64,000 bases of DNA from a virus. Both the position numbers and the translations under genes were made by a program. Where the stretch lies: positions 1 to 64,000 of IMG/VR virus record IMGVR_UViG_3300008448_000018; one strand, 5' to 3'. Positions 564-22,697 of the stretch are shown piece after piece (positions within the stretch are counted from its first letter, which is position 1; each line of letters opens with the position of its first letter). The notes under the pieces were generated by a model. That model was given only the letters and a program-made list of their open reading frames with translations, was not told the DNA's origin and did not search any database.

Positions 564-661
564 ATAACTTTTATCAAACATTTTTTGTAAGTGGTAATGC
601 ATTGTTTTGGTTTTCAATGATTACTTTTATTTATGGAAGTTATTTATTTATAAAAGAATAA
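560..661 (+). CDS. tiny membrane protein (33 aa)
   Basis: MNNFYQTFFVSGNALFWFSMITFIYGSYLFIKE, hydrophobic. Confidence 0.5.
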   Translation: MNNFYQTFFVSGNALFWFSMITFIYGSYLFIKE

Positions 662-706
662 TCTTAAAAATAATTTAACTTTCAACTAAAATGCCCGGCG
701 CACTCG

Positions 707-901
707 GGCGTGTCGTGTGGTTAAGATCACATAAAATAATTTCCAGAATTACGGCGTGTCGTCTTGACTTTTTGAGATTTATCTGGTAGTATTCTCTTAT
801 ACAATTAAATAAATAGCAAAAACGATGTGATGTAATTCACATTCAATTTGTCTGATATGTCCGATTTTCAATTTGATAATGTCAGCCAAAACTGCTAGAC
901 T
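707..901 (+). promoter_or_regulatory. early regulatory block 1: GGCGTGTC x2, CRP-like boxes 716-731 and 826-841, sigma-A promoter TTGACT(764)-N17-TAGTAT(787), 9-nt repeats 849-866, TGTCAG(880)-N10-TAGACT(896)
   Basis: Motifs read directly; they recur in other intergenic blocks. Confidence 0.8.
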
Positions 902-942
902 TACTATGTAAGAAAATGAAAGTCTCTTGAAAGGAGAACTCA

Positions 943-1161
943 ATGTCCGCAAATGTCTATTCAATAGAAAACCTACTTGTAGGAAAAAACTACTACTCAC
1001 GCACCTTGCAAGGTGAAATCGTATCTGCAGAAATTCACCCTAAAGGTATTTGGTATGAAGGTTGCGAAACTTATCTTGTAGAGGTTGCACCTAATAGTGG
1101 CTACAATAATTTTGGTCGCAGAACTTACCGAACTGTAGCCGTAAAAACTGAAAATAACTAA
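943..1161 (+). CDS. hypothetical small beta-rich protein
   Basis: GAAAGGAG RBS; 72 aa ORF after the promoter. Confidence 0.75.
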   Translation: MSANVYSIENLLVGKNYYSRTLQGEIVSAEIHPKGIWYEGCETYLVEVAPNSGYNNFGRRTYRTVAVKTENN

Positions 1162-1178
1162 GAAAGGAAAACTGAAAT

Positions 1179-1361
1179 ATGTATAATGTAAAACTAGAAA
1201 CCTTTAATGGTTCAGTAAAAACTATCAGCCTGCCCTCAAAAGGTGCGGTTGCTCAATTCATATCAACATACCCAACACAATTACCCGTTGGCGTATCCGT
1301 AAAAATCGCTTGCGATACTCTTGGAATTACTGGCACACTTCGTGGAAAGGCTACACTATAA
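1179..1361 (+). CDS. hypothetical protein
   Basis: GAAAGGA RBS; 60 aa. Confidence 0.7.
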   Translation: MYNVKLETFNGSVKTISLPSKGAVAQFISTYPTQLPVGVSVKIACDTLGITGTLRGKATL

Positions 1362-1567
1362 TGAAAAAAATCTATCACTCACTACAATTCGTCACCGAAC
1401 TAGACGAAACTCACCCAGTAGCACAACGCCTGCTAACACTTTCAGAAATTGAACAAGTGCAAATGCTTGAAGGTATGCTAAAAGAATTACTTGCACCTAT
1501 GATTCAACCAACACTTGATGAACTCAACGAGGGCAATTCTTATGCAACGCTAAAGGTGGCAAAATAA
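1361..1567 (+). CDS. hypothetical protein
   Basis: TAATG coupling; MKKIYHSLQF... Confidence 0.7.
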   Translation: MKKIYHSLQFVTELDETHPVAQRLLTLSEIEQVQMLEGMLKELLAPMIQPTLDELNEGNSYATLKVAK

Positions 1568-1738
1568 ATGATGACACGCAAAGACTATGTAGCCGTTGCA
1601 GAAATTCTTTCATCTTATAAAGATTTAATAGGTGATGAATTTTTATTTGAAGATTTGGTAGAAGATTTTTCTTCATTCTTTGCAGAGGATAATCCAAATT
1701 TTAAATTTGATAAATTCAGAGAGGCGTGCATGAAATGA
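1568..1738 (+). CDS. small phage protein (MTRKDY...DNPxF...F.EAC type)
   Basis: Hand-translated MMTRKDYVAVAEIL...EDNPNFKFDKFREACMK. Confidence 0.7.
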   Translation: MMTRKDYVAVAEILSSYKDLIGDEFLFEDLVEDFSSFFAEDNPNFKFDKFREACMK

Positions 1739-1887
1739 TTCTAGATACTGGAACACTAATCGGAATAACAATTGCACTTGCTGGATCTCTTTTTGTAATG
1801 GGTATGTTTTGGAAACAAAATATTGCACAACAAAAAGAAATTCGCAGATTGCAAATTGCGTTGAGAAGTGAACGACTAAAAAAATAA
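1735..1887 (+). CDS. small membrane protein with basic tail
   Basis: MILDTGTLIGITIALAGSLFVMGMFW...; ATGA overlap. Confidence 0.65.
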   Translation: MILDTGTLIGITIALAGSLFVMGMFWKQNIAQQKEIRRLQIALRSERLKK

Positions 1888-1892
1888 ATAAA

Positions 1893-1921
1893 AAATCCTG
1901 AGCAAGATTTAAAACTGCTCA
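1893..1921 (+). ncRNA. H-type pseudoknot, family copy 1
   Basis: AAATC-C-TGAGCA-A-GATTT-AAAAC-TGCTCA. Confidence 0.75.
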
Positions 1922-1928
1922 AAAATTT

Positions 1929-2032
1929 CCGGCGTGTCGTCCACAGGTTATCCACAGACCTTTACGTGTGATATTAAACACACCCCGAAATGACCTTATG
2001 AACTGGAAAATGTCAGTCCAGTCTGATAGGCT
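1929..2032 (+). promoter_or_regulatory. regulatory block 2: GGCGTGTC, DnaA boxes 1937-1945 and 1948-1956, CRP-like box 1967-1982, TGTCAG(2011)-N10-TAGGCT(2027)
   Basis: Motifs read directly. Confidence 0.75.
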
Positions 2033-2059
2033 TGATTTATCAAGACGAAAGGAAAACTA

Positions 2060-2254
2060 ATGGGAAACTTATTTGATAAAATAGGAACTTGCTACACTTG
2101 CTATGATGAGGGCGTTATCTTTACTGATATGGATAGCGATGGATTTATAAATGATTTCTGCGCTGATTGTGAAAAAGGGCAGGGATTTGCTAATGAGTAT
2201 GCCGTATGGTATGCTGAAAATGAAATGAACGAATATGCTAAGGAGAACGCATAA
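2060..2254 (+). CDS. small CxxC..CxxC protein
   Basis: GAAAGGA RBS; CYTC, CADC. Confidence 0.75.
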   Translation: MGNLFDKIGTCYTCYDEGVIFTDMDSDGFINDFCADCEKGQGFANEYAVWYAENEMNEYAKENA

Positions 2255-2463
2255 TGGAATATAACTACTCACTTACTACTTCATATGATGGAGAACTTGT
2301 AAATACCCTGCGTGTTAGCGATATGCTAGAGGCAGTAAACGCTTGGACTAAATGTGTAGACTTTGGCGACGCTAAAGAATACGCAACCTATAACTTGTCA
2401 GACCCTACTGGCAAAATGTATACTAAGACCTTCTACCGCAACGGAAATGTGAGTGTAAAATAA
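2254..2463 (+). CDS. hypothetical protein
   Basis: AGGAG RBS, TAATG coupling. Confidence 0.75.
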   Translation: MEYNYSLTTSYDGELVNTLRVSDMLEAVNAWTKCVDFGDAKEYATYNLSDPTGKMYTKTFYRNGNVSVK

Positions 2464-2464
2464 T

Positions 2465-2749
2465 ATGGGTTCAGTAACCGCACTAGGAATTCAAGATACA
2501 GTATTAGACTTGGAGACTCAGATTCTCTATCACTTGAAGGGTAATCACTATCCTCCAGTACCCGCAGAAATGGTACAACCTTGCATTGAGGCTATTGACG
2601 CTTACTATGATGAGGACTATGACCGAATGATTGATATGCCAAAAGTTGGTGACTTTCAGATTTTATATCGTGGCTCAACGCAAGCACCTGCAAGGGCTAT
2701 CGTAGACCAGCACCACTTATCATTCTGGCTACCTGAAGAGGAATACTAA
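2465..2749 (+). CDS. hypothetical phage protein (HLxGNHYPPVP motif)
   Basis: 94 aa ORF in operon context. Confidence 0.75.
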   Translation: MGSVTALGIQDTVLDLETQILYHLKGNHYPPVPAEMVQPCIEAIDAYYDEDYDRMIDMPKVGDFQILYRGSTQAPARAIVDQHHLSFWLPEEEY

Positions 2750-2750
2750 A

Positions 2751-2993
2751 ATGACTGCTACAATAACAAATATGAAATTTGTGTATGCAGACTTACTTAC
2801 ACCTAGCCAGTTAATGGAAGGTGACTTGATCAATATTGATAATGATATTGTGGAAGTTATTTCAGTAGTTGATGACGCTACTGGAGATAACTATACAATT
2901 ACTCATAAGAATGAATATGATGAAGTAGAAGAAACTCTTTGCACCTATGAAGATATGTTTAAGTTGTATGTCTTTATAGATGATGATGAATAA
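2751..2993 (+). CDS. hypothetical acidic protein, SH3/KOW-like
   Basis: LMEGDLINIDNDIVEVISV pattern. Confidence 0.7.
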   Translation: MTATITNMKFVYADLLTPSQLMEGDLINIDNDIVEVISVVDDATGDNYTITHKNEYDEVEETLCTYEDMFKLYVFIDDDE

Positions 2994-3094
2994 AAATTCA
3001 TAACACTGCATAAAAACCCCGGCGTGTCCGTTTTGTCCAGAACCTCCTGATTATGGGGAGTTGATATTTTTCCCAATTTCTGCTAAGATTAAGT

Positions 3095-3235
3095 ATGAAA
3101 AAAACACCAGAGGAATTACGCAGGCTTATGGAATTACGCCGTAGCAATGCTGCCTCATCGGTCCCTAATAAAAAGAAATACAACCGCAAGAAATGTCAGT
3201 CCCTAATGCTAGAATTAAAGAAAGAAAGTGAGTAA
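3095..3235 (+). CDS. small basic leaderless protein (46 aa)
   Basis: TTGATA(3061)-N17-TAAGAT(3084)-N5-ATG; MKKTPEELRRLMELRRSNAASSVPNKKKYNRKK... Confidence 0.6.
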   Translation: MKKTPEELRRLMELRRSNAASSVPNKKKYNRKKCQSLMLELKKESE

Positions 3236-3241
3236 TCCACC

Positions 3242-3964
3242 ATGTCAAAATTACTTAGAAGCAAAGATAGGAAAGTAGCAAATGCCGTCACCCCAAATGG
3301 AAAACAAGCAAGTATCGCAAATACATTCGGATTACCTGCAGGAAAAAACTATTCATGTCCTGGCGCTACGAGTGTCTGCGAGAGTGTTTGCTATGCAGGC
3401 AAATTGGAAAAGGTATTCCCAACAGTAAAGAAAAACTTATTGCATAACTGGGAATTACTACGTAATGCTGATCGTGTTGAGATGTACACACTAATTTCAG
3501 AAATGATTGCAGAGTTTAAAACAGATTGTGTTAGACGCAATGCCCCTATGCTATTTCGCATTCACTGGGATGGCGATTTCTTTAACGATGAGTACGCACA
3601 AGCATGGCGTTCAGTAATCGAAGAGCAACCTGATATTCAATTCTGGGTATACACTAGAGTTAAGTCTGCAGCGCTTATCCTAAAAGACATTCCTAATCTA
3701 TCTTTATATTATTCTACAGATAGCGAGAATAAGAGTGTAGGCGTTGACCTAAAGAGTAATCATGGTATTAGACTTGCATACCTTGCCAAAAATTTTGCTA
3801 TCGGTCAAGGGGATATGAAAGAGTTATTCAATAAGCCTGGTGCTAAGTGCCCTGAGAATAATAAGTCTATTCCACTTATCTCACAGAAAGGCTCGGCTTG
3901 CGTTTCTTGCGGATTGTGTGTATACTCGAAGGCAGACATAGTTTTTTCCGCAACTAAAAAGTGA
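3242..3964 (+). CDS. GP88-like Fe-S/radical-SAM-like phage protein
   Basis: SCPGATSVCESVCYA, FRIHWDGDF, YTR, C-terminal CxxCxxC; preceded by TGTCAG(3194)-N10-TAGAAT. Confidence 0.75.
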   Translation: MSKLLRSKDRKVANAVTPNGKQASIANTFGLPAGKNYSCPGATSVCESVCYAGKLEKVFPTVKKNLLHNWELLRNADRVEMYTLISEMIAEFKTDCVRRNAPMLFRIHWDGDFFNDEYAQAWRSVIEEQPDIQFWVYTRVKSAALILKDIPNLSLYYSTDSENKSVGVDLKSNHGIRLAYLAKNFAIGQGDMKELFNKPGAKCPENNKSIPLISQKGSACVSCGLCVYSKADIVFSATKK

Positions 3965-4035
3965 GATACCAACAATGGATAACAGTATAATCTTATATAT
4001 TCTGCTATGGCTATTTCTAATGTTTCTTACCCAAT

Positions 4036-4148
4036 AGTCCGTAATGTCCGATATGTCCAGATGTGATTTATATCACAATCAAAAATGTATCAAATAGTGA
4101 GATTTTTACCCTTCCGACTTGCATTTTGTCAGTAGGTAGTAGTAAAAT
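4036..4148 (+). promoter_or_regulatory. regulatory block: three 9-nt repeats 4036-4062, perfect CRP-like box 4062-4077, TTGCAT(4119), TGTCAG(4127)-N10-TAAAAT(4143)
   Basis: Motifs read directly. Confidence 0.8.
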
Positions 4149-4178
4149 AATAATATCAACCTAACGAAAGGAAATACA

Positions 4179-4343
4179 ATGTCAGTAGCAACCGCAACTT
4201 ACAAAGTAGGAGATACCTACACAACACAGAAGTCCAAAGTCACAGGAGTAATCAAGGAGATTATTCCACAGGCTAACGGAAATGTCCGTGTTGCGCTAGA
4301 TGTAGAGGGAAAGACCCGATACACAACTTGGACAGCCAAGTAA
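4179..4343 (+). CDS. small SH3-like beta protein (54 aa), paralog A
   Basis: GAAAGGA RBS; MSVATATYKVGDTYTTQKSKVTGVIKEII...RVALDVEGKTRYTTWTAK. Confidence 0.75.
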   Translation: MSVATATYKVGDTYTTQKSKVTGVIKEIIPQANGNVRVALDVEGKTRYTTWTAK

Positions 4344-4352
4344 AATAAAATA

Positions 4353-4422
4353 ACGAAACAGGGGCAGTTTAGGAGAGTATCTAGCCCAATGTCGTAAGTA
4401 AGAACTCTCCCCCCTTCGGGGG
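4353..4422 (+). ncRNA. larger pseudoknot followed by a cUUCGg hairpin
   Basis: GGGC 4362/GCCC 4384; loop GGAGAGT 4372 pairs with ACTCTCC 4404; then CCCC-TTCG-GGGG. Confidence 0.6.
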
Positions 4423-4477
4423 AAATGTCAGACCCACCCCCTACAATAGAAACTAACCACCAAAGAAAAGGAAACCA

Positions 4478-4903
4478 ATGTCAAGAGGAAAAGCAATCTC
4501 AGTAAAAATCGCAACACCAAAGGTAATCAAGGCACTAGAACAGGCACTAAATAAACTAGAACTTGATTGGACTTCACAAGAAGCCAATGAAGCAAAGTAT
4601 GAGAAGGCAAGAGAGAAGTGGCGTAAAGAAGTTCAAGAATACGCTATTGCTAACATCAAGAAGGCAACCAACTTCCGCACTTCATATCGTTCATACAACA
4701 ACACGCTAAACATTGACTACGATATTATCGTAGCAAAAGAAAGCGATATGCCAGTAGAACCAAATCGTGATTTCGTAGTGCTACACACTCACGAATATCA
4801 AAGTCAGAAAGAGGAAATTGCAAATGCAATTCGTATCCTAAAGATGACAGATGAGGAAGTTGTAAATACTTCTACATATAATGCGGTAGCACGCTACCTA
4901 TAA
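4478..4903 (+). CDS. hypothetical protein (141 aa)
   Basis: AAGGA RBS; TGTCAG(4426)-N10-TACAAT promoter. Confidence 0.8.
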   Translation: MSRGKAISVKIATPKVIKALEQALNKLELDWTSQEANEAKYEKAREKWRKEVQEYAIANIKKATNFRTSYRSYNNTLNIDYDIIVAKESDMPVEPNRDFVVLHTHEYQSQKEEIANAIRILKMTDEEVVNTSTYNAVARYL

Positions 4904-4918
4904 TTCCTACTAAGGAAA

Positions 4919-4948
4919 AGTCCTGAGTATGACTACTAAAACTGCTCA
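4919..4948 (+). ncRNA. H-type pseudoknot, family copy 2
   Basis: AGTC-C-TGAGTA-T-GACT-ACTAAAAC-TGCTCA (U.G wobble in stem 2). Confidence 0.75.
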
Positions 4949-4986
4949 CCAACTCTAAACACCACAACAGAAAGGCAAGACCCAAA

Positions 4987-5157
4987 ATGACACTAGGCGG
5001 ATACACTTACCAAATTGGTGATTTATTCACAACAAGCAAAACAGGAATTACAGGTCGTATTAGCAACTTTACACCTATCAATTCTAAACTTACTAGAGTT
5101 TCATTACAGTTAGCAAATGGCGCACACCGATTTGCTATGGTAAAAACATCTAAGTAA
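4987..5157 (+). CDS. small SH3-like beta protein (56 aa), paralog B
   Basis: GAAAGG RBS; MTLGGYTYQIGDLFTTSKTGITGRISNF...RVSLQLANG. Confidence 0.75.
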   Translation: MTLGGYTYQIGDLFTTSKTGITGRISNFTPINSKLTRVSLQLANGAHRFAMVKTSK

Positions 5158-5164
5158 AAAGAAT

Positions 5165-5263
5165 TCGCCAGGCTGATTAGGGCGATAATAGAAATACTAT
5201 AGAGCCACCTTATTGGGCAGGTGCAAGAACCCATACATCCTGAGCATGATGGAAAAAGGCTCA
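5165..5263 (+). ncRNA. three tandem H-type pseudoknots; the third is family copy 3
   Basis: TCGCC/GGCGA + GGCT/AGCC; ACCT/AGGT + TGGG/CCCA; CATC/GATG + TGAGC/GCTCA. Confidence 0.65.
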
Positions 5264-5272
5264 AAAATTTTG

Positions 5273-5357
5273 CCGGGCTCGTGTGATCAACATCACATCT
5301 CATTATATGAGATAGTTACGATTCCCATTTGTACTTGTCAGTCCTCATATGTATACT
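5273..5357 (+). promoter_or_regulatory. regulatory block: CCGG, perfect CRP-like box 5282-5297, TCTCA-N5-TGAGA, TTGTAC, TGTCAG(5336)-N10-TATACT(5352)
   Basis: Motifs read directly. Confidence 0.8.
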
Positions 5358-5386
5358 TATATTAAACCACAAAGAAGGAGACCCCT

Positions 5387-5650
5387 ATGATAGCAACAGC
5401 GATAGCAATCCAAGATGCAACTGCCTCAGCCGTTCACGATAATATGATTATGGATATGGCTGGACATTTATACCACGCAAGAAACGAAATGACAGACGAA
5501 GAGTTTGTTCAGTTCTTATTTAAATACTCAGCCAGTTTGTCAGCCCTAACTGCTACATTGGTTACATCAGTTTGTTTGACAGAAAGTCAGATGAACGATA
5601 TGGTAGATACCATTAAAGAATTCGACCAACTAGAACAAGAAATGGAATAA
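5387..5650 (+). CDS. hypothetical protein
   Basis: AAGGAG RBS; 87 aa. Confidence 0.8.
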   Translation: MIATAIAIQDATASAVHDNMIMDMAGHLYHARNEMTDEEFVQFLFKYSASLSALTATLVTSVCLTESQMNDMVDTIKEFDQLEQEME

Positions 5651-5655
5651 CCCCT

Positions 5656-6135
5656 ATGTCAACTAATATACTTGAAGCGGTAACAGAAGATAAGTTAACC
5701 GTCGCATACAACCCGCACTTACTGGTTACTTATAAGGCAATTCCAGATACATATGCTGCACCTGAAGTGCCTACATTCTTAACAAGCAAGGTTACCGATA
5801 TTGAATGGGACCTACACGTATCACGCAATAATACTAAGAGACTTGATAAGTTAGAGAATCTTATCAATGGACTAGATGAGCAAGTTATTGAATGGACTAA
5901 TCCTAACTATGAAAAGGATGAGGTTCTTGCTGGAATCTGTGAATACTTTGGTATTAATCCTACCAAGGAAATTGAAGTACAAGGAACTGTAACATTTACA
6001 GGAACAGTGCGTGTACCAATTGCAGAAGCAGAAGACTTTGACTTAAGTAATGTTTCAGTCGATGTTGATTTAAATTCATATGACTATGATGCAGACTTTT
6101 GTGTTGACGAAGTATCTCTTGAGGAGCACTACTAA
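5656..6135 (+). CDS. hypothetical acidic protein
   Basis: 159 aa ORF in operon. Confidence 0.8.
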   Translation: MSTNILEAVTEDKLTVAYNPHLLVTYKAIPDTYAAPEVPTFLTSKVTDIEWDLHVSRNNTKRLDKLENLINGLDEQVIEWTNPNYEKDEVLAGICEYFGINPTKEIEVQGTVTFTGTVRVPIAEAEDFDLSNVSVDVDLNSYDYDADFCVDEVSLEEHY

Positions 6136-6159
6136 GTTTCATAGGGGGCTATGAAAAAG

Positions 6160-6190
6160 GGACCTGAGCAGTGTCCATGTAAACGGCTCA
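6160..6190 (+). ncRNA. H-type pseudoknot, family copy 4
   Basis: GGAC-C-TGAGC-AGT-GTCC-ATGTAAACG-GCTCA. Confidence 0.75.
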
Positions 6191-6198
6191 CCAATATT

Positions 6199-6311
6199 CC
6201 CACTTATTAGAGTGGTAGTGTGTTGAGTAAGTGGGTGCTTATCTCGTAAGAATAAGAATACCTGGAGTTCATCAGAAGGATGATCTATAAGCAACAGGGC
6301 ACACTACCACT
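6199..6311 (+). ncRNA. large pseudoknotted RNA (10-bp and 12-14-bp stems, hairpins in loop 3)
   Basis: CCCACTTATT/AGTAAGTGGG; AGTGGTAGTGTG/CACACTACCACT. Confidence 0.7.
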
Positions 6312-6319
6312 TGTAAATT

Positions 6320-6441
6320 CCGGCACGCCCAGCCTGGTTTGTCAAGTTACGATTATGTGAGATTCCCCACATTCCCAAAATGTCCGATTTACCCCTATTT
6401 AACTATCCTGATTTGCATTTGTCGGTGGCTAGGTGTATGAT
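6320..6441 (+). promoter_or_regulatory. regulatory block: CCGG, CRP-like box 6356-6371, TGTCCGATT, TTGCAT(6413), TGTCGG(6420)-N10-TATGAT(6436)
   Basis: Motifs read directly. Confidence 0.8.
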
Positions 6442-6471
6442 TAGATTAACAACAAAAGAAAGAAGGAAATC

Positions 6472-7494
6472 GTGGCTCACGACTTAGAAACACAAAATGG
6501 TAAAACCTCATTCGCCTCATTCAGAGAACCTGCTTGGCACGGATTGGGTACTGTATTTACCGAAGAAAAAACAACCGCAGAAATGCTAGAGGCTGCAAAT
6601 CTTAATGGGTGGAATGTTCGCCTTGAAGATATGCAAACACCCGCACACCTAACAAGCGACAAGGCTTACCAATATGTCTTGCGTACTAATCCTACTGATA
6701 ACACCCAGACTGATATTCTTGGTGTTGTTGGTGAGCGTTATCACGTATTGCAGAATGAAGATTTATTCTCATTCGGTGATAATATCCTAGACGGCGGAGG
6801 TCGTTGGGAAACTGCTGGCTCAATCAAGGGTGGGCGTGTTGTATTCGGTGCATTAGCACTAGAGCGTGAAACAATCCTAGACCCTAGCGGTGTTGCAGAT
6901 AAGGTAAAGACTTATTTACTTATCAACACATCACACGATGGCTCAATCGCTATTCAAGCAAGCATAACACCTGTTCGTGTTGTGTGCGCTAATACTCTTA
7001 ACCTTGCTCTTGGTGGCGTAGGTCGCAAGAAGAACAAGGGTATCAAGCAATCTTTCAAGATTCGCCACACACAAACTGCAAATGGTAAAGTGCAGATTGC
7101 TCGTGAAACTCTTGGTCTTGCTAATGCTTATATGGACGAATTTGATGTTATGGCTAAGGCTATGATTGAAAAAGAAGTTTCTGCTAAGGATTTCAATGAC
7201 ATCATTCTTGCTGCATATGCTAAGCCAGAAAAAGATTCTAAGGGTTCAATGAAGAAGTGGGAAAATAAAGTTGATGTTATCAACGATATTTACACTGGTG
7301 AATTCAATGGAATGATTGCTGGTAATGCGTGGGGTGCGTTCAATGCACTTACTGAGCGTCTTGACTGGTATCGTTCTGCTCGTGGTGGTTCTAACGAATC
7401 TATCCTTGCAAGCGCAAGCGGATTTGACCCTGCTATCAACGCAGAAAAAAATCGTCTGCTAAAAGTTGTGCAAAATGTTATGCAATTAGCATAA
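6472..7494 (+). CDS. DUF932 / TIGR03299-type phage/plasmid protein
   Basis: MAH..REPAWHGLG, YHVLQNEDLF, ETAGSIKGG, NTSHDGS, TPVRVVCANT, AWGAFNALTE. Confidence 0.9.
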   Translation: MAHDLETQNGKTSFASFREPAWHGLGTVFTEEKTTAEMLEAANLNGWNVRLEDMQTPAHLTSDKAYQYVLRTNPTDNTQTDILGVVGERYHVLQNEDLFSFGDNILDGGGRWETAGSIKGGRVVFGALALERETILDPSGVADKVKTYLLINTSHDGSIAIQASITPVRVVCANTLNLALGGVGRKKNKGIKQSFKIRHTQTANGKVQIARETLGLANAYMDEFDVMAKAMIEKEVSAKDFNDIILAAYAKPEKDSKGSMKKWENKVDVINDIYTGEFNGMIAGNAWGAFNALTERLDWYRSARGGSNESILASASGFDPAINAEKNRLLKVVQNVMQLA

Positions 7495-7508
7495 GCAAAC
7501 GAAAGAAA

Positions 7509-7536
7509 ATTCCTGAGCAAGAATCAAAACTGCTCA
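7509..7536 (+). ncRNA. H-type pseudoknot, family copy 5
   Basis: ATTC-C-TGAGCA-A-GAAT-CAAAAC-TGCTCA. Confidence 0.75.
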
Positions 7537-7539
7537 CAC

Positions 7540-7612
7540 GCTCCGTTAGATTAGCGGTTAAATCATCACACTGTCACTGTGAAGATCACGAGTTCAAATC
7601 TCGTACGGGGCG
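7540..7612 (+). tRNA. tRNA-Asp(GUC)
   Basis: GCTCCGT/ACGGGGC acceptor, TCACA-CTGTCAC-TGTGA anticodon arm, ACGAG-TTCAAAT-CTCGT T arm. Confidence 0.9.
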
Positions 7613-7730
7613 CAATGCAAAAAGCGGTGCCGGATTTTTGTTTATTTTATTAGCATTGCATTACGGAGACTTGATTTATTTCCCATTTTCGGGTAAAATT
7701 AATATATACCTACTAACCAAAGGAAACACC

Positions 7731-8156
7731 ATGAGTGAAAGATCAAAAGGATATATTGGTCAAATAGTTGACGGTAAGAAGTTAGCAACAATAGCAAATG
7801 ATATCTATCGTCTACAGTATAGCAATGACTTTAGTGAATGTACAGTAGATAATTTGTTATTTGTTACCCTTGAAGAAAAGAATGTATTTGGCGACAATAA
7901 GTATGCCTTGGTTTGCTCAGAAGGAGTAGGCTGGGAGCAGGACACTTATGGATGTCTAGAAGTACCAACTAACATTGGTCAAATGGGTCTATGGAATGGT
8001 AGAGTGTTTATCTCTGTAGATACTGTTAAAGAATGTCTAACAGAACAAACAGAGGATATCGCAGACTACATCCGTGTCTTTGGTGATAGATTAGATAGAA
8101 ACTGTTCCCTATGGCAATCTAAGATGTCAGTGCCTAGCGATATGATATTATCATGA
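7731..8156 (+). CDS. hypothetical protein
   Basis: AAAGGA RBS before MSERSKG. Confidence 0.75.
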   Translation: MSERSKGYIGQIVDGKKLATIANDIYRLQYSNDFSECTVDNLLFVTLEEKNVFGDNKYALVCSEGVGWEQDTYGCLEVPTNIGQMGLWNGRVFISVDTVKECLTEQTEDIADYIRVFGDRLDRNCSLWQSKMSVPSDMILS

Positions 8157-8314
8157 CCACAACATACAAACCATACACAATATCAGAACTCGTAAATGAG
8201 ATTTATGAGGACAACCTATCGCACTTTGAATTTGAGGAAAACATGGGGGGAGACCCATGTGATTGCCACTTACATATTACCATGAACACCATTGTCAAGT
8301 ATTGGGGAGAATAA
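8153..8314 (+). CDS. small leaderless protein (53 aa)
   Basis: TGTCAG(8125)-N10-TATGAT(8141)-N6-ATG; MTTTYKPYTISEL...CDCHLH...KYWGE. Confidence 0.7.
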   Translation: MTTTYKPYTISELVNEIYEDNLSHFEFEENMGGDPCDCHLHITMNTIVKYWGE

Positions 8315-8472
8315 TGTTAGGCTATACTAAGGAAGATTTAGATAATATGACTGATGCCGTGGCTTCTGCCATAACTACCGTGAATCCTGACGATGACCCT
8401 TGGTTACACGGGAGCCTATCGAAGACTCAAGAATTCCTTGAAGGTTTGTGGGCAGAGGGGTACTTTGACTAA
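8314..8472 (+). CDS. small hypothetical protein
   Basis: TAATG coupling; MLGYTKEDL...GLWAEGYFD. Confidence 0.7.
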   Translation: MLGYTKEDLDNMTDAVASAITTVNPDDDPWLHGSLSKTQEFLEGLWAEGYFD

Positions 8473-8747
8473 TGTGGGGTAAGTATACTTTTACATGTGA
8501 TCCCGAAGAGTGTGACGCTCTTGTTGAGTTTACTGCCAGGGATGGATTTGGCTTTCCCCTGGGAGTTGTCGAGATGATGTGCCCATGTGGTAGGAAGTTA
8601 AACTATATTAGTTACGAAGAGTTAGGGGAGTCTGAGACTTTCCTGTGCTCCCGTTGCAATGAGGTATTAGATAAAGAGTCAGAGCACTGTGATCATTATC
8701 TCACCGTGTGTAATTATTGTTGCGACTGTGGATGTAGCCAAACGTGA
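8472..8747 (+). CDS. Cys-rich zinc-binding protein
   Basis: Multiple Cys pairs. Confidence 0.7.
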   Translation: MWGKYTFTCDPEECDALVEFTARDGFGFPLGVVEMMCPCGRKLNYISYEELGESETFLCSRCNEVLDKESEHCDHYLTVCNYCCDCGCSQT

Positions 8748-8808
8748 TGAAGGTCACACCCCAAAACCCTATTACGACCTTGCAATTATAATCCCCAAAC
8801 CCTATAAT
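8743..8808 (+). promoter_or_regulatory. CRP-like box 8743-8758 plus sigma-A promoter TTGCAA(8780)-N17-TATAAT(8803)
   Basis: Motifs read directly. Confidence 0.75.
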
Positions 8809-8840
8809 TGTTATTACGACCATAGAAAGGAAATCCCAAA

Positions 8841-9026
8841 ATGCCAACATATGATGTAAAAGTAATCGTTGAATACAATTACGAAGTAGAAGCAGACAAC
8901 GACCAAGAGGCAGAAGAACAAGGCTGGCACTACGAAGACTACGGATACACCGCTGAGGTTTATTCTATTGAGATAGATGAGCAACCTGAACCTGAAGAAG
9001 AGGATGAAGATGAATCAGTTGAATAG
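8841..9026 (+). CDS. very acidic small protein
   Basis: GAAAGGA RBS; YEVEADNDQEAEEQ. Confidence 0.75.
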   Translation: MPTYDVKVIVEYNYEVEADNDQEAEEQGWHYEDYGYTAEVYSIEIDEQPEPEEEDEDESVE

Positions 9027-9177
9027 TTTCATTGAGTATATGAAGATTCATGAGATAAGTCTTTTACAAGACCTTGAGAAGATTGACTATGTTAATGAAC
9101 ATCATTTCTATAGGACTAAAGAGGCTGAGATTTATAATACCCGCCACCTTTTGTCAGTGGCAGAGGGTATGATTTAA
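9010..9177 (+). CDS. hypothetical protein
   Basis: GAGGA upstream; MNQLNSFIEYMK... Confidence 0.6.
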   Translation: MNQLNSFIEYMKIHEISLLQDLEKIDYVNEHHFYRTKEAEIYNTRHLLSVAEGMI

Positions 9178-9179
9178 TC

Positions 9180-9458
9180 ATGAAAGAAAACGCAGACCCA
9201 ATCCAACCGCACCTACAACGTATGGTAGACCATGGGGTATCAGGTATTGATATCCTACATGGCGAACTAAAGAATCTAATGCTGCTGGCAGAGCGTGAAC
9301 TAGAGCATGCACAAGCAGTAGAGGACGCAACTGAAGAAGCCATGGACTCTATGGAACGTACACGAGCAGAAGGCATGCTAGACGCTTATGTACACCTATA
9401 TGGCTTGACATATGATATCTCATTTGCTATCGCAGATATGGAGGCTAAGAATGCCTAA
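9180..9458 (+). CDS. leaderless helical protein
   Basis: TGTCAG(9152)-N10-TATGAT(9168)-N6-ATG. Confidence 0.75.
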   Translation: MKENADPIQPHLQRMVDHGVSGIDILHGELKNLMLLAERELEHAQAVEDATEEAMDSMERTRAEGMLDAYVHLYGLTYDISFAIADMEAKNA

Positions 9459-11539: not shown

Positions 11540-12380
11540 AGGTTGCGCTGCCGCTACATGCGGCGGTGCGCCCCGGCAAATCGGACATATGGTACAAACC
11601 TCCCAAACCTTATTTACGAAAAACTTATTACGATCCACCAAATAATTTTCCAGATTCATGGGCTTTTGCCAAACCTTAAAAACTTATTACGAAGGTTTGA
11701 AATATTTTCCAGATTCATAGCCAAACCTTATATCATACAAACCTTGTATTGTCAAACCCTGTATCCAGGTATAAAGGTTTTGTATTGTATCTTATACTAC
11801 TGACATTATGAATGACCTTGTTTATCCCCCGCCCTAGCGATGACTGACAGGATTAGCAGACAGCCCCTGCAGCGGGGGATCAAAAGATACACAACAAACC
11901 ACCCTATATAAAACATTACGATAACAAACCTTTTTTCCTGGTTTTAGATTATTTACCAAACCTTTTATAACTTTTTGTTATTGTTTTCCACAATTTTGGT
12001 GCAAATTTATAGGGGGTTTTTAGGCTATAAAGGTTTGACAAACCACCATATTTGTGGTATAAGCAGGGTATCGGGCATATGAGGTTTGGAGGTTTGACAA
12101 TATGAAGGTTTTGTGGTAGGAGGTTTGACGGCTCCAGACATTACGAAGCCCCTCTATAAAAGCGCTCCATTCTCCACTTATCTCCACTTTCCTCCACTCT
12201 AACCCAATCTAAAAAATATCAGTAAGATTTATCTGTGGATAAACCTGTGGATAACTATAGTATCAAACCAGAAAAACCTCTCAAACCAGACATATTGACC
12301 TGTGGATAACTCCAGGGTATCAAACCATCAAACCCTATCTCTGGCTTATATAAGGCGTATCTCTGGCATATAGGCTATAC
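11540..12380. repeat. non-coding repeat island (CAAACC/GGTTTG repeats, WTTACGA repeats, DnaA boxes, GTGGAG-N4 array); candidate origin or TF-binding array
   Basis: No credible ORF; about 12 CAAACC and several GGTTTG copies; TGTGGATAA at 12234, 12246, 12301. Confidence 0.7.
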
Positions 12381-12387
12381 TAGATAC

Positions 12388-12522
12388 ATGCTCAATGTCC
12401 TATGCTTCGACTGTGGGGGAATGTATGAGGTTTTATATGACACTCCCAAACCAACACAACAATGCCCTAAGTGTATTACTACTAGGGGTAATTCTGCTTC
12501 TTTGCCAATCCCGCCGAAATAG
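12388..12522 (+). CDS. tiny leaderless zinc-ribbon protein
   Basis: TATACT(12376)-N6-ATG; CFDC...CPKC. Confidence 0.6.
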   Translation: MLNVLCFDCGGMYEVLYDTPKPTQQCPKCITTRGNSASLPIPPK

Positions 12523-13897: not shown

Positions 13898-14188
13898 ATG
13901 TGGTGGTCTTGGGTATTAGCAGTGATTGGCGTTGCAGGCATATTTTTTGTCGGACGTAAAACTATTTGGGGTTGGCTCGTTCTATTGTTTAACGAGTTGC
14001 TTTGGATTACCTACGCCCTTATTACCGATCAATACGGCTTTATATTTTCCGCTCTTGCCTATGCCGTGGTCTATGTCAGGTCTTACCTGCACTGGAAAGC
14101 AGATGAAAAGAAAATTCCAGCAAAGACTATTAACGACTTAAAGCGTGAGAATGAAGAGTTCTACGCTACACAAAGCAGTTTTGAGTAA
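13898..14188 (+). CDS. three-helix membrane protein (PnuC/SemiSWEET-like)
   Basis: Hydrophobic segments; RK..WGW...W...Q.G pattern. Confidence 0.6.
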   Translation: MWWSWVLAVIGVAGIFFVGRKTIWGWLVLLFNELLWITYALITDQYGFIFSALAYAVVYVRSYLHWKADEKKIPAKTINDLKRENEEFYATQSSFE

Positions 14189-14396: not shown

Positions 14397-14653
14397 TGGC
14401 AGACCCAACTCAAACCCCTGCTCGTGGTGATTGGGCATGCCCATGTTCTGGTTGCTCTAAGGCTGTTGCTTGGGAAAGAAAACAGTTAATTGAACTATTT
14501 GAAAAACATAAGCATGAGTATTTAGTTTATCGTGGATCATCATTTAATGAAGATGGTAGTTTGTTTTGGGCTAAAGATGATGCATCAGCATACGCTGAAG
14601 GTATTGATGAAGTTGTTAAACTAATTAAAGAAAGAATGCCAAAGAAAAAGTAA
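14396..14653 (+). CDS. hypothetical protein
   Basis: AAGGAG RBS; CPCSGC. Confidence 0.7.
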   Translation: MADPTQTPARGDWACPCSGCSKAVAWERKQLIELFEKHKHEYLVYRGSSFNEDGSLFWAKDDASAYAEGIDEVVKLIKERMPKKK

Positions 14654-15573
14654 TGGCAAGCCTATCAATGAAAGAGTTGTCCAAGCGAAACAACTTTAAT
14701 ATTTTTACTAAGCGCATTAGCATTGGTCAAGGATTTTATGTTGTTGGCATGGATGAACTAATACTATTAGACACATCTATTCTAGATAATATTGATGACT
14801 TAGAGGGCTTAAGATATTACGAAGAGAAGAACTCTATCCTGCTTCCAACAAGGGGTGGGAACAAGATTAAACTAACAAGCCTATACAAGGACTCAGAGTT
14901 CTCCAATAGAACACAAAACACAACCATTAAACAAGACCTAGAAGTGTATAGTCTATCTCATAAACTAGAAGAGATTAAGAAGAAGACTGGAAAACCCTAT
15001 GTAGATGTTCGTGTTAGTGAAACCATTTATAGAGTTGTAACTGTTATCTCTTCACCATTTGGATACAAGTCTGACTTTCACTTTATGGATATTGAAGGCA
15101 ATGCTGTTCTACATATTTCACATAAGTATGGCAATAGCCCAAGAGACTTTCAGCAATGGTCTGGTACTTCAAAAAGATTTCAGGAAAGAATATTTAATCA
15201 TCCAGAAACTGCAAGTTTTATTGCAGCACTACAAAACCTTGGATCTGAATTACCCAAAGCAAGTACTGTAGCCCGTAGAATTAAAGATGATACGCTAAAG
15301 CAATTGGCTATATATGGCACTGACTTTGGCTTAGGGTTTGGTCTTAACAATGTTGAGGCTGTATTACAAGGTAATCTATCATTAAAGAACATTGGTGACT
15401 GTTATATGCTTATTGCTTCTCACCATGGACTTAGGAATCCAATTGTTCCCTCGCAAAATTATGAGCCAGTATTTATTGCAGTACACAAGAAAGATAGAAG
15501 TGATCATGGAATCAAGAATGCTAGGATAACAATTAACCCTCTTGGTGGAAGAAACATTAAACAATTTATATAA
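14653..15573 (+). CDS. putative PD-(D/E)xK-like nuclease
   Basis: KSD-F...ISHK arrangement; 306 aa. Confidence 0.45.
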   Translation: MASLSMKELSKRNNFNIFTKRISIGQGFYVVGMDELILLDTSILDNIDDLEGLRYYEEKNSILLPTRGGNKIKLTSLYKDSEFSNRTQNTTIKQDLEVYSLSHKLEEIKKKTGKPYVDVRVSETIYRVVTVISSPFGYKSDFHFMDIEGNAVLHISHKYGNSPRDFQQWSGTSKRFQERIFNHPETASFIAALQNLGSELPKASTVARRIKDDTLKQLAIYGTDFGLGFGLNNVEAVLQGNLSLKNIGDCYMLIASHHGLRNPIVPSQNYEPVFIAVHKKDRSDHGIKNARITINPLGGRNIKQFI

Positions 15574-15576
15574 TCT

Positions 15577-15650
15577 GGAGCAGTAGCATAGTTGGTTAAT
15601 GCCCCGAACTCATAATTCGGTAATCGTAGGTTCGAGTCCTACCTGCTCTA
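15577..15650 (+). tRNA. tRNA-CAU (Met or Ile2)
   Basis: GGAGCAG/CTGCTCT, CCGAA-CTCATAA-TTCGG, GTAGG-TTCGAGT-CCTAC. Confidence 0.9.
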
Positions 15651-15654
15651 CTAA

Positions 15655-15726
15655 ACGCCTATAACTCAGCGGAAGAGTATCTGGTTTCTACCCAGACTGT
15701 CGGGGGTTCAAATCCCTCTAGGCGTA
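15655..15726 (+). tRNA. tRNA-Arg(UCU)
   Basis: ACGCCTA/TAGGCGT, TCTGG-TTTCTAC-CCAGA, T loop TTCAAAT. Confidence 0.85.
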
Positions 15727-16410
15727 CTCATATTTACTTGGATTGGGAAAAAGTTTTAATAGCACAACGTCAAGCATCATGCCAAATGCTTGGTCCTCTG
15801 TTGATAAAAATACTGAACTATCCTTAATATGGCTTGATCTTTCTAAATGTTTTTTGTTTACATAAACCTTAACATCATCCATCTGGCTTCCACCAACATT
15901 GTAGATATTGCCATACATAGATCGCCATAAACAACTAGGATACTTTTTAATCACATTATTTAGTTTATCCTTTTCCATTGGCATTGGTATATGTAGTTCA
16001 TAGTCATATGGATTTTGTATACCCTGGTCTACTAGCCTTGTTCGTGTAAGTATTAGTTTTTTGATATACATTGATGACCCTGTAATCTTAACATACTTAT
16101 CTATCTTATCAGACAGAAAACCACTATAGAATTGATCAATTTTTTCTATTGGTTTAATAATAAAAAAGTCATCGTTCATAAGTACAAAGTTATTAGATAT
16201 TTCTTCAGAATTGCATAATGCTTGTAGATTATTTATTGCATTGGCATACTTGTGGTGCTTTTGCTCTACTTCTATAAAGTCACCAGAGTACCAGTCTGGC
16301 TTACCGCCAACCAGCCAAACCCTAGCATCTGGAAAACTATTTACAACAGAACGTATTGAGTATCTAAGTTCTTCATTGTCTCCAGATTTGCATATATAAA
16401 CAAAGTCCAC
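15718..16410 (-). CDS. Stealth-like phosphotransferase/glycosyltransferase
   Basis: DFVY..EELRYSIRSV, NDDFF, YELHIP, RSMYGN. Confidence 0.7.
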   Translation of the reverse strand: MDFVYICKSGDNEELRYSIRSVVNSFPDARVWLVGGKPDWYSGDFIEVEQKHHKYANAINNLQALCNSEEISNNFVLMNDDFFIIKPIEKIDQFYSGFLSDKIDKYVKITGSSMYIKKLILTRTRLVDQGIQNPYDYELHIPMPMEKDKLNNVIKKYPSCLWRSMYGNIYNVGGSQMDDVKVYVNKKHLERSSHIKDSSVFLSTEDQAFGMMLDVVLLKLFPNPSKYEYA

Positions 16411-16472
16411 TATGTCCCTACCTTTATAACAAGTATATCAGAATCTGGTATACTGGTATAAATATAGAATAG

Positions 16473-18187: not shown

Positions 18188-18190
18188 TAA

Positions 18191-22467: not shown

Positions 22468-22697
22468 TATTTTATTGCCTCTCTAGTGACCAAGACCACT
22501 GCCCCATTCATTTCTAATGCCTTTTTAACTTGAACAACATATTGTAACGCTTGGATCTTTTCATCATGAACCATAGTTACAAAATGCTTTTCATCTAATT
22601 TTATCGTAAGAAAGGCATCGTTGTCAATAATCTGTACTTTAAATCCTTTTGGGGGAATAATAGAATGAAAGGCTCTACGCATAGAATCTGTATACAT
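22467..22697 (-). CDS. hypothetical protein
   Basis: Translationally coupled ORF. Confidence 0.75.
   Translation of the reverse strand: MYTDSMRRAFHSIIPPKGFKVQIIDNDAFLTIKLDEKHFVTMVHDEKIQALQYVVQVKKALEMNGAVVLVTREAIK

What the first reader, a model, noticed from the sequence alone, without database searches (positions are those of the whole stretch)
695..9180. Modular early intergenic cassette that may integrate several host-state signals
Seen: blocks at about 690-900, 1890-2030, 3015-3090, 4035-4150, 5165-5360, 6160-6440 and 8740-8810 repeat one order, with some parts missing per block: structured RNA, CCGG, TF-like boxes, promoter, then a GAAAGG RBS. Known consensus matches point to cAMP-CRP, WhiA, BldC, DnaA and PafBC. 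Inference: a lytic phage reading host energy, cell-cycle and DNA-damage state before committing, a multi-input logic I do not know to be described for such phages.
Basis: inference. Interest (0 to 1): 0.8.

Follow-up and report, generated by a model that had tools for sequence, protein, structure and literature searches.

The report
Phage early-gene control cassettes, host-like sites
The gaps between the small early genes of this uncultured lake phage of actinobacteria hold real, repeated control cassettes. Each has an RNA pseudoknot, upstream boxes, and a promoter built like the host's DNA-damage (PafBC) promoters, often behind a CRP-type site. Whether host proteins actually read these sites is untested.

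Summary
Observation confirmed. The window is the first 64 kb of a complete 101.5-kb lytic-looking actinophage that encodes WhiB. Its early intergenic gaps carry five over-represented elements in a near-fixed order.

- **H:** a covarying 28-nt H-type RNA pseudoknot just after stop codons.
- **G:** the box GGCGTGTCG.
- **C:** the palindrome TGTGA-N6-TCACA (5 perfect copies, about 0.1 expected), sometimes with perfect DnaA boxes.
- **M:** the box ATGTCCGAT.
- **P:** the promoter TGTCRG-N10-TAnnnT, followed by a Shine-Dalgarno-led or leaderless start.

P has the sequence and position (-28 to -23) of the PafBC -26 element. The same motif lies upstream of recA in 26 of 30 sampled Actinomycetia genomes. 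The order holds in 668 distinct blocks from 81 related phage genomes, and P sits in 115 unrelated sequence contexts.

The PafBC and CRP matches are strong and the DnaA match is moderate. The WhiA match rests on a 5-mer inside a 9-mer box, and the BldC match is at chance level. The phage shows no lysogeny genes, so there is no visible "commitment" decision, and no host binding has been shown. The cassettes also coincide with homology breakpoints, as do the PeSL cassettes of T4-type phages. This scan has already reported the same architecture in at least 8 other genomes of this phage lineage.

The parts
564..942 (+). Cassette A: GC hairpin 694-708, G box 707-715, C box 716-731, G box 753-761, sigma70-like promoter (TTGACT 764-769, TAGTAT 787-792), C box 826-841 (perfect), M box 857-865, PafBC-type promoter 880-901, SD 929-936, ATG 943.
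1888..2059 (+). Cassette B: pseudoknot H 1894-1921, G box 1931-1939, perfect DnaA box 1948-1956, C box 1967-1982, PafBC-type promoter 2011-2032, SD 2047, ATG 2060.
2994..3241 (+). Cassette C: G box 3021-3029, sigma70-like promoter 3061-3089, possible leaderless 46-aa basic ORF 3095-3235, PafBC-type promoter 3194-3215, ATG 3242 (GP88-family gene).
3965..4178 (+). Cassette D: M box 4044-4052, perfect C box 4062-4077, PafBC-type promoter 4127-4148 (canonical TTGTCAGT form), SD 4166, ATG 4179.
4344..4477 (+). Cassette E: GC-rich hairpin 4407-4425 followed directly by PafBC-type promoter 4426-4447, ATG 4478.
4904..4986 (+). Cassette F: pseudoknot H about 4919-4948 only, then SD 4970 and ATG 4987. 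No promoter motif.
5158..5386 (+). Cassette G: pseudoknot H 5236-5263, degenerate G box about 5273, perfect C box 5282-5297, PafBC-type promoter 5336-5357, ATG 5387.
6136..6471 (+). Cassette H: pseudoknot H about 6160-6190, a long-range helix around 6210-6313 that few relatives share, C box 6356-6371, M box 6380-6388, PafBC-type promoter 6420-6441 (exact RecA-NDp form TTGTCGGTG-N8-TATGAT), GTG 6472 (DUF932 gene).
7495..7730 (+). Cassette I: pseudoknot H 7509-7536, tRNA-Asp 7540-7613, sigma70-like promoter 7671-7699, ATG 7731.
8125..8155 (+). PafBC-type promoter 8125-8146 inside the 3' end of the upstream gene. ATG 8153 lies exactly 6 nt after the -10 hexamer (leaderless layout).
8743..8840 (+). 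Cassette J: C-like box 8743-8758 (one mismatch), sigma70-like promoter TTGCAA-17-TATAAT 8780-8808, SD 8825, ATG 8841.
9152..9182 (+). PafBC-type promoter 9152-9173 (exact RecA-NDp form). ATG 9180 lies 6 nt after the -10 hexamer (leaderless layout).

Best explanation
**Shown.** The early arm of this lytic-looking actinophage is cut into many one- to four-gene transcription units, each headed by a modular control cassette. The cassette runs in this order:
1. A 28-nt H-type RNA pseudoknot placed 0-25 nt after the previous stop codon.
2. One or more upstream boxes: G (GGCGTGTCG), a DnaA box, and a CRP-type palindrome C.
3. The M box, ATGTCCGAT.
4. A promoter with no -35, a TGTCRG element at -28 to -23 and an often extended -10 (TGnTAnAAT).
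5. A Shine-Dalgarno-led or leaderless start codon.

The cassettes flank swappable ORFan genes and coincide with homology breakpoints between related phages.

**Inferred.**
- The core promoter is read by host RNA polymerase-sigmaA through the host activator PafBC ('sigma adaptation'). PafBC is switched on by single-stranded DNA, which infection itself may supply.
- The extended -10 probably gives some PafBC-independent basal activity.
- The palindrome, centred near -64.5, -74.5 or -84.5, recruits a host Crp/GlxR-family dimer as an upstream activator.
- The pseudoknot most likely acts as a 3'-end stabiliser or insulator for the upstream mRNA. In relatives it often sits directly in front of tRNA genes.
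- The readers of G, M and the cassette DnaA boxes remain unassigned.
For: - **Motif counts and strand bias in this genome:**
- **P logo from 115 unrelated contexts:** positions I did not impose are conserved (G at -14 in 91 of 115; TCC/TGG after TGTCAG). No -35 signal appears.
- **Inferred start site:** 14 of 115 contexts have ATG/GTG exactly 6 nt after the -10 and none at 4, 5 or 7-9 nt. A further 79 have a Shine-Dalgarno-led start 23-65 nt downstream. This puts TGTCRG at -28 to -23, the PafB contact region (PMC8635444).
- **Positive control:** a strict TGTCRG-N10-TAnnnT lies upstream of recA in 26 of 30 sampled Actinomycetia genomes. It is 24 of 28 without the two unpublished genomes G031 and G037.
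- **C box:** present in 50 of 115 contexts against 3 of 115 in controls. The inner logo fits the CRP family, and spacings cluster at 44, 54-56 and 63-65.
- **Readers:** the phage has no WYL, Crp-HTH, sigma-70 or HTH_3 match, and 30 small early-region proteins scanned have no significant Pfam match to a DNA-binding family. Small Actinomycetia genomes have a Crp-family protein plus an adjacent WYL pair.
- **Pseudoknot:** in 141 distinct copies the top mutual-information pairs are the stem-1 columns (100% paired, 4 pair types). Stem 2 shows C-G, U-G and U-A. It starts 0-25 nt after a stop codon in 125 of 194 copies.
- **Order grammar:**. **Mosaic gene content and breakpoints at cassettes:**
Against: - No binding or transcript data exist, and the host is unidentified.
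- 63 of 115 promoters carry an extended -10 (TGn), which could make them PafBC-independent.
- The phage -26 element is mostly TGTCAG followed by NCC rather than the canonical TGTCGGTG.
- The C-box centres lie about 3 bp away from the classical E. coli class I positions.
- A perfect C box followed by a P promoter was not found in any of 301 sampled Actinomycetia genomes. It is therefore a phage invention, not a copy of a host promoter.
- Dozens of small ORFan early proteins could include unrecognised DNA-binding proteins.
- Sigma70-like promoters in the same region (764, 3061, 7671, 8780) could be the true immediate-early promoters. The P class could then be a later class that depends on a phage factor.
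Confidence: 0.55

Rival explanations
1. Phage-encoded readers. The ordinary sigma70-like promoters fire first. An early phage protein then binds the TGTCAG element and bridges to sigma region 4, as MotA/AsiA do at T4 middle promoters. A phage dimeric regulator binds the palindrome to time or shut off the units. On this view the resemblance to host PafBC and CRP sites is mimicry or coincidence.
For: Sigma70-like promoters lie in the same region. Many conserved small ORFans have no assigned function. The C+P composite was absent from 301 host-class genomes. The flanks of the phage -26 element differ from the canonical host form. The PafBC authors themselves note the analogy with T4 MotA/AsiA (PMC8635444).
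Against: No significant match to any DNA-binding family was detected in the phage proteins scanned. The match to the host motif covers sequence, spacing (N10 only; N9 and N11 give 0-1 sites) and position. The CRP-family match extends to positions that my search did not select. The divergent control region at the head of both early arms also uses P and C.
Confidence: 0.28
2. One reading: the cassette is a logic gate integrating cAMP-CRP, WhiA, BldC, DnaA and PafBC, so that the phage reads host energy, cell-cycle and DNA-damage state before committing.
For: Strong PafBC and CRP matches and enriched perfect DnaA boxes. The G box contains the WhiA 5-mer and sits just upstream of the -35 region in both promoter classes. 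The phage encodes WhiB.
Against: BldC-type repeats are at chance level. The WhiA motif is too short to test. DnaA boxes in cassettes partly overlap the CRP-like box. No lysogeny module was found, so no commitment step is visible. Most cassettes carry only one or two box types (the commonest strings are P, C, CP and HCP).
Confidence: 0.1
3. The cassettes are mainly mobile recombination modules, like the promoter-early stem-loop (PeSL) cassettes of T4-type phages. Their repeated sequence persists because it mediates gene shuffling. The boxes are parts of one repeat unit, not separate regulatory inputs.
For: Gene content between cassettes is mosaic; for example 5387-6135 is present in about 5 of 80 relatives and 3242-3964 in about 70. 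Homology end-points pile up at cassette positions. PeSL precedent: PMC2839356.
Against: Only short motif cores are conserved while the flanks are unrelated (115 context clusters). Boxes occur in varying combinations at discrete spacings. Both fit selection on binding sites better than a single repeat unit. This rival is compatible with the best explanation rather than opposed to it.
Confidence: 0.15

Closest known systems
PafBC-dependent (RecA-NDp, recA P1-type) promoters of Actinobacteria, read by 'sigma adaptation' (PMC8635444, PMC11804915)
   Same: Bipartite motif TGTCRG-N10-TAnnnT with the element at -28 to -23, no -35, and strict N10 spacing. The same motif was found here upstream of recA in 26 of 30 sampled Actinomycetia genomes.
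   Different: At least 12 copies drive phage early ORFan genes instead of repair genes. Most copies add an extended -10 (TGn) and read TGTCAG followed by NCC. Many are preceded by CRP-type, M, G or DnaA boxes. PafBC dependence is untested.
CRP/GlxR-family sites and class I activation
   Same: A 16-bp palindrome TGTGA-N6-TCACA with a T.TA.A inner pattern. It lies upstream of the core promoter at discrete spacings about 10 bp apart.
   Different: The centres, near -64.5, -74.5 and -84.5, are about 3 bp off the E. coli class I positions. The partner promoter is PafBC-type. The combination was not found in 301 Actinomycetia genomes.
PeSL (promoter-early stem-loop) mobile regulatory cassettes of T4-type phages (PMC2839356)
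   Same: A repeated RNA structure plus an early promoter flanks small non-essential ORFans in a hyperplastic region. The cassettes coincide with insertion, deletion and replacement breakpoints.
   Different: The promoter is not sigma70 -35/-10 type. The RNA element is a pseudoknot without a U-tract, not a terminator hairpin. There are extra upstream boxes. Mini-circles were not examined.
Early region of Streptomyces phages of the Jay2Jay group (Stanwilliamsviridae), the closest isolates (DUF932 53% and capsid 44% amino-acid identity)
   Same: One repeated promoter in front of almost every small early gene, and the same DUF932 early gene.
   Different: Jay2Jay uses an ordinary -35 TTG-type element with a TAGACT -10 (17 copies on one strand). 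It shows no -26 element or CRP-box enrichment.
T4 middle promoters (MotA box at -30 plus AsiA, 'sigma appropriation')
   Same: The -35 is replaced by a factor-binding element upstream of a normal -10, in a phage temporal class.
   Different: The T4 factor is phage-encoded. Here the element matches a host activator's site and no phage factor is detectable.

Membership tests
PafBC-dependent (RecA-NDp) promoter | Consensus tGTCgg(N10)tA(N3)T with fixed N10 spacing | tested here: met
   12 sites on the + strand and 3 on the - strand against 2.2 expected. N9 and N11 spacings give 0-1 sites. Consensus taken from PMC8635444.
PafBC-dependent (RecA-NDp) promoter | Element at -23 to -28 relative to the start site, with no -35 element | tested here: met
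   The start site is inferred from 14 leaderless starts exactly 6 nt after the -10. There is no information content upstream of the element in 115 contexts. The start site is inferred, not measured.
PafBC-dependent (RecA-NDp) promoter | The host encodes the PafB/PafC pair | tested here: inconclusive
   Adjacent WYL pairs are present in all six small or MAG Actinobacteria genomes checked, but the real host is unknown. The phage itself has no WYL match.
PafBC-dependent (RecA-NDp) promoter | Transcription requires PafBC activated by ssDNA | not testable with these tools
   Needs in vitro transcription or a pafBC mutant.
CRP/GlxR binding site | 16-bp palindrome TGTGA-N6-TCACA | tested here: met
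   5 perfect and 8 one-mismatch sites, 11 of the 13 in early intergenic DNA. Found in 50 of 115 promoter contexts against 3 of 115 controls.
CRP/GlxR binding site | Family-typical inner positions (T at 6, central TA, A at 11) | tested here: met
   Logo TGTGAt.TA.aTCACA, taken from positions not fixed by the search pattern.
CRP/GlxR binding site | Bound by a cAMP-receptor-family protein | not testable with these tools
   A Crp-family ORF is present in 4 of 5 small Actinomycetia genomes above the Pfam cut-off. None is present in the phage.
DnaA box | 9-mer TTATCCACA, clustered | tested here: met
   6 perfect copies against 1.6 expected: three in cassettes (1948, 101157, 101198) and three within 70 bp at 12242-12309. 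Binding is untested. Two of the cassette copies overlap a CRP-like box.
WhiA site | Asymmetric 5-mer GACAC upstream of the -35 (PMC10243135) | tested here: inconclusive
   The G box GGCGTGTCG holds GACAC on the opposite strand. It sits 3 nt upstream of the -35 in 29 of 135 contexts and 18 nt upstream of TGTC in 13 of 135. A 5-mer cannot be told apart from a different reader of the longer box.
BldC site | Head-to-tail direct repeats AATTNNNN(C) (PMC5859096) | tested here: not met
   Single repeats: 376 against 366 expected. Strict tandems: 3 against 0.9 expected, none in the early region.
PeSL-type mobile regulatory cassette | Repeated early promoter plus RNA structure flanking ORFans, at recombination breakpoints | tested here: met
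   The promoter type and the RNA fold differ from PeSL.
Known RNA family for the pseudoknot | Match to any Rfam model | tested here: not met
   Only tRNA matches at the gathering threshold and at E up to 5.

The most novel reading that the evidence does not exclude
A globally abundant lineage of lytic lake actinophages has rebuilt its whole early programme on the host's ssDNA-sensing DNA-damage activator PafBC. It has coupled this in a phage-specific way to Crp, and possibly to DnaA and WhiA/WhiB. Infection itself, or host stress, would then trigger early transcription, and host physiology would tune it. Each unit would be insulated by a new class of 3' pseudoknot.
Probability: 0.25. Interest if true: 0.8.

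Novelty: new variant of a known kind. Interest (0 to 1): 0.6.

Why it matters
PafBC promoters are known only as the chromosomal DNA-damage regulon of actinobacteria. My literature searches found no paper that reports phage promoters of this type. If host PafBC and Crp do read these sites, this would be a clear case of a lytic phage taking over a host alarm activator to launch its own genes.

The motifs are short, numerous and precisely placed, so the idea can be tested directly with existing mycobacterial in vitro transcription systems. The pseudoknot family and the cassette-mediated gene shuffling also give a handle on how the hyperplastic ORFan regions of uncultured lake phages evolve and are expressed.

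Tried and rejected
- **No close relative among isolates.** A near-identity DNA search of the phage collection found nothing.
- **Host not identified.** The phage WhiB found only six MAG contigs, from taxonomically inconsistent bins. I read these as probably mis-binned phage DNA, so they give no host.
- **No known RNA family.** Rfam gave only tRNAs at the gathering threshold and at E up to 5.
- **No phage regulator found.** Pfam scans of 30 small early-region proteins found no significant match to a DNA-binding family.
- **No host template.** The composite of a perfect C box plus a P promoter gave 0 hits in 301 Actinomycetia genomes. The phage architecture is therefore not copied from a host promoter.
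- **BldC rejected.** The repeats are at chance level.
- **Streptomyces relative differs.** I first took GTC-N12-TAGACT sites in Streptomyces phage Jay2Jay for PafBC-like promoters. In context they are ordinary -35/-10 promoters.
- **Helical phasing not proven.** The spacings are clearly non-uniform, with modes at 44, 54-56 and 63-65. The period is poorly resolved, with vector strength similar from 9 to 12 bp, so I claim discrete spacings only.
- **Large fold at 6136-6345 is marginal.** Its z-score is -1.8 and few relatives share the region.
- **Not attempted.** I did not try structure prediction of the ORFans, because a negative result would not exclude a phage regulator.

Full report
**What the DNA is**

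The window is bases 1-64000 of a single-contig virus record of 101,516 bp. It has direct terminal repeats and is estimated 100% complete. It is a tailed phage:
- capsid, protease, portal and tail-fibre families lie on the minus strand;
- it encodes a WhiB-family protein at 22697-22981;
- it encodes a GP88-family protein and a DUF932 protein whose relatives are almost all in phages of Actinobacteria.

The closest isolates are large Streptomyces phages, at 53% (DUF932) and 44% (capsid) amino-acid identity. GC content is about 37%.

No tyrosine or serine recombinase and no Cro/CI-type HTH was detected, so the phage looks strictly lytic.

The + strand arm of small genes runs from about 100456 across the record's arbitrary start to about 20.8 kb. 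A divergent control region lies at 100020-100455.

All seven blocks exist, and there are more of them (see the parts list). Five element types recur.
- **P**, TGTCRG-N10-TAnnnT: 12 copies on the + strand, all between 100382 and 9152 across the record start. Expectation is 2.2 on both strands, and changing the spacer by one base gives 0-1 sites.
- **C**, TGTGA-N6-TCACA: 5 perfect copies against my composition-based estimate of about 0.1. Of the 13 sites with at most one mismatch, 11 lie in early intergenic DNA.
- **G** (GGCGTGTCG) and **M** (ATGTCCGAT): these are the two most over-represented 9-mers in the genome. In this genome G occurs only on the + strand and M almost only there (6 against 1).
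- **H**: five copies of CCTGAGYA...GCTCA.

**Relatives**

A search with the DUF932 protein found 451 IMG/VR contigs, and the best 80 were kept. In 668 distinct blocks from these plus the present genome, the order is nearly invariant:

| Pair | Counts |
|---|---|
| H before G | 22:0 |
| H before C | 86:2 |
| H before P | 113:0 |
| G before M | 36:0 |
| G before P | 109:0 |
| C before M | 131:9 |
| C before P | 336:3 |
| M before P | 93:1 |
| DnaA box before P | 129:0 |

G and C interleave. In this genome the one exception is cassette D, where M precedes C.

**P is a promoter of the PafBC type**

The 601 P sites fall into 115 groups with unrelated flanks, so shared ancestry does not explain the motif. 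Positions I did not impose are conserved:
- G at -14 in 91 of 115 contexts and TG in 63 of 115, which is an extended -10;
- A-A in the -10 hexamer;
- TCC, ACC or TGG after TGTCAG.

Nothing is conserved where a -35 would lie.

In 14 of 115 contexts an ATG or GTG follows the -10 by exactly 6 nt, with none at 4, 5 or 7-9 nt. This is the leaderless layout common in Actinobacteria. In 79 more contexts a Shine-Dalgarno-led start follows at 23-65 nt. The start site is therefore about 7 nt after the -10, and TGTCRG occupies -28 to -23.

That is the region contacted by the PafB HTH. The published in vivo consensus is tGTCgg(N10)tA(N3)T, with no -35 (PMC8635444).

As a positive control, the strict pattern lies upstream of recA in 26 of 30 Actinomycetia genomes sampled. 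It is 24 of 28 if the unpublished genomes G031 and G037 are left out.

Two subtypes exist.
- TGTCRG-TGG is the canonical RecA-NDp form. It is often leaderless (10 of 35) and seldom has a C box (8 of 35).
- TGTCAG-NCC is rarely leaderless (1 of 42) and often has a C box (23 of 42).

**The palindrome looks like a Crp/GlxR site**

A site with at most two mismatches starts 25-90 nt upstream of TGTC in 50 of 115 contexts. Controls give 3 of 115 in a downstream window and 3 of 115 in shuffled sequence. The inner positions give TGTGAt.TA.aTCACA.

Spacings cluster at 44, 54-56 and 63-65 nt. This puts the centres near -64.5, -74.5 and -84.5. The distribution is strongly non-uniform, but the period is not sharply resolved. 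M lies 23-24, 32-34 or 40-41 nt upstream of P.

**The other boxes**

G appears in several settings among its 135 distinct contexts:
- 3 nt upstream of the -35 of a strong ordinary promoter (TTGACTTTT...TGnTAgtaT): 29 contexts;
- next to a C box: 38 contexts;
- 18 nt upstream of TGTC: 13 contexts;
- next to TCCACA or DnaA-like words: 12 contexts.

G contains the WhiA 5-mer GACAC on the other strand, and WhiA sites lie upstream of the -35 on either strand (PMC10243135). A 5-mer inside a longer conserved box cannot decide the question.

Perfect DnaA boxes number six against 1.6 expected. Three are in cassettes. Two of those form a repeated composite, TTATCCACATGA-N6-TCACA, that overlaps a CRP-like box. 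The other three lie in an origin-like region at 12.2 kb.

BldC-type repeats are at chance level (consensus from PMC5859096).

**The structured RNA is real**

In 141 distinct 35-nt copies, an unbiased mutual-information scan ranks columns 6-19, 5-20 and 7-18 first. Column pair 6-19 is 100% paired with four pair types. This defines a 4-5 bp stem 1 around the loop CUGAGCAA.

The loop's UGAGCA pairs with a downstream UGCUCA. That stem shows C-G in 107 copies, U-G in 30 and U-A in 3. An A-rich linker joins the two stems. The result is a compact H-type pseudoknot of about 28 nt.

It starts 0-25 nt after a stop codon in 125 of 194 copies. It has no U-tract and no Rfam match. It often lies directly in front of tRNA genes, as at 7509-7536 before tRNA-Asp. 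I infer that it stabilises or insulates the 3' end of the upstream mRNA. This is not shown.

**Who reads the sites?**

A six-frame search of the phage finds no WYL, Crp-type HTH, sigma-70 region 2 or 4, or HTH_3 domain. Thirty small early-region proteins have no significant Pfam match to a DNA-binding family.

Small (1.4-1.9 Mb) Actinomycetia genomes and two lake MAGs carry an adjacent pair of WYL proteins, and most carry a Crp-family ORF. Host reading is therefore plausible.

It remains an inference, for these reasons:
- the host is unknown;
- the extended -10 may allow PafBC-independent firing;
- the perfect C+P composite occurs four times in this phage and in none of 301 sampled Actinomycetia genomes, so it is a phage construction;
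- the ordinary promoters in the same arm could produce a phage factor that reads the P class, as in T4 middle transcription.

**Evolutionary side**

Gene content between cassettes is mosaic. For example, 5387-6135 is present in about 5 of 80 relatives, 7731-8156 in about 15 and 3242-3964 in about 70. Alignment end-points pile up at cassette positions. This resembles the PeSL cassettes of T4-type phages (PMC2839356).

The closest isolate examined, Jay2Jay, has the same one-promoter-per-small-gene layout but with ordinary -35/-10 promoters. The lake lineage thus looks like a variant in which the -35 was exchanged for a -26 element.

**Verdict**

The 'commitment' idea has no support.

This scan has already reported the same architecture in at least eight other genomes of the lineage and in other readings of this stretch. 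My analysis was made independently and agrees with them, except on BldC.

Noticed in passing
window 11900-12400: A non-coding, origin-like region. It holds three perfect DnaA boxes on the minus strand (12242, 12254, 12309), four GGTTTGAC iterons, three TCTCCACTT-like repeats and repeated GTATCAAACC. It may be the phage replication origin, using host DnaA.
   Followed up: partly
window 1894-1921, 4919-4948, 5236-5263, 6160-6190, 7509-7536; 141 or more distinct copies in L001-L080: A family of 28-nt H-type pseudoknots with strong stem-1 covariation and no Rfam match. They lie just after stop codons and often directly upstream of tRNA genes.
   Followed up: yes
window 8125-8155 and 9152-9182: Two PafBC-type promoters embedded in the 3' ends of genes, each with the next ATG exactly 6 nt after the -10. 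These are leaderless genes. The same layout is seen in 14 of 115 unrelated contexts.
   Followed up: yes
window 3095-3235: A possible 46-aa, very basic ORF starting 5 nt after the -10 of a sigma70-like promoter (3061-3089). The stretch is conserved in about 66 of 80 relatives. It could be a small immediate-early DNA- or RNA-binding protein.
   Followed up: partly
window 14653-20827: A cluster of sugar-modifying genes on the + strand: Stealth CR2-like, GT1-like and GT47/RXYLT1-like glycosyltransferases and an FkbM methyltransferase. A PnuC-like fragment lies at 13898-14188.
   Followed up: no
genome 86640-93304 (L090 2640-9304): Four paralogous tail-fibre-like genes of 440-457 aa (phrog_2295). 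Their collagen-like GGN repeats dominate the genome's k-mer over-representation list.
   Followed up: no
L093 (Streptomyces phage Jay2Jay, 1-11612, reverse complement): 17 copies of a -35 TTG-type element with a TAGACT -10 on one strand, roughly one per small early gene. The cassette layout is the same but there is no -26 element or CRP box.
   Followed up: partly
window 11784-11805, minus strand: A PafBC-type motif (TGTCAGTAGTATAAGATACAAT) pointing antisense to the + strand genes. It may be an antisense promoter or a chance match.
   Followed up: no
genome 100020-100455 (L090 16020-16455): A divergent control region. A leftward PafBC-type promoter (100076, minus strand) has a perfect C box at the 44-nt spacing. 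Two more C boxes, a G box, an M box and the rightward promoter at 100382 complete it.
   Followed up: partly
window 5538-5559: A PafBC-type motif inside the coding sequence of 5387-5650, 97 nt from the next start. It may be an internal promoter or a chance match.
   Followed up: no
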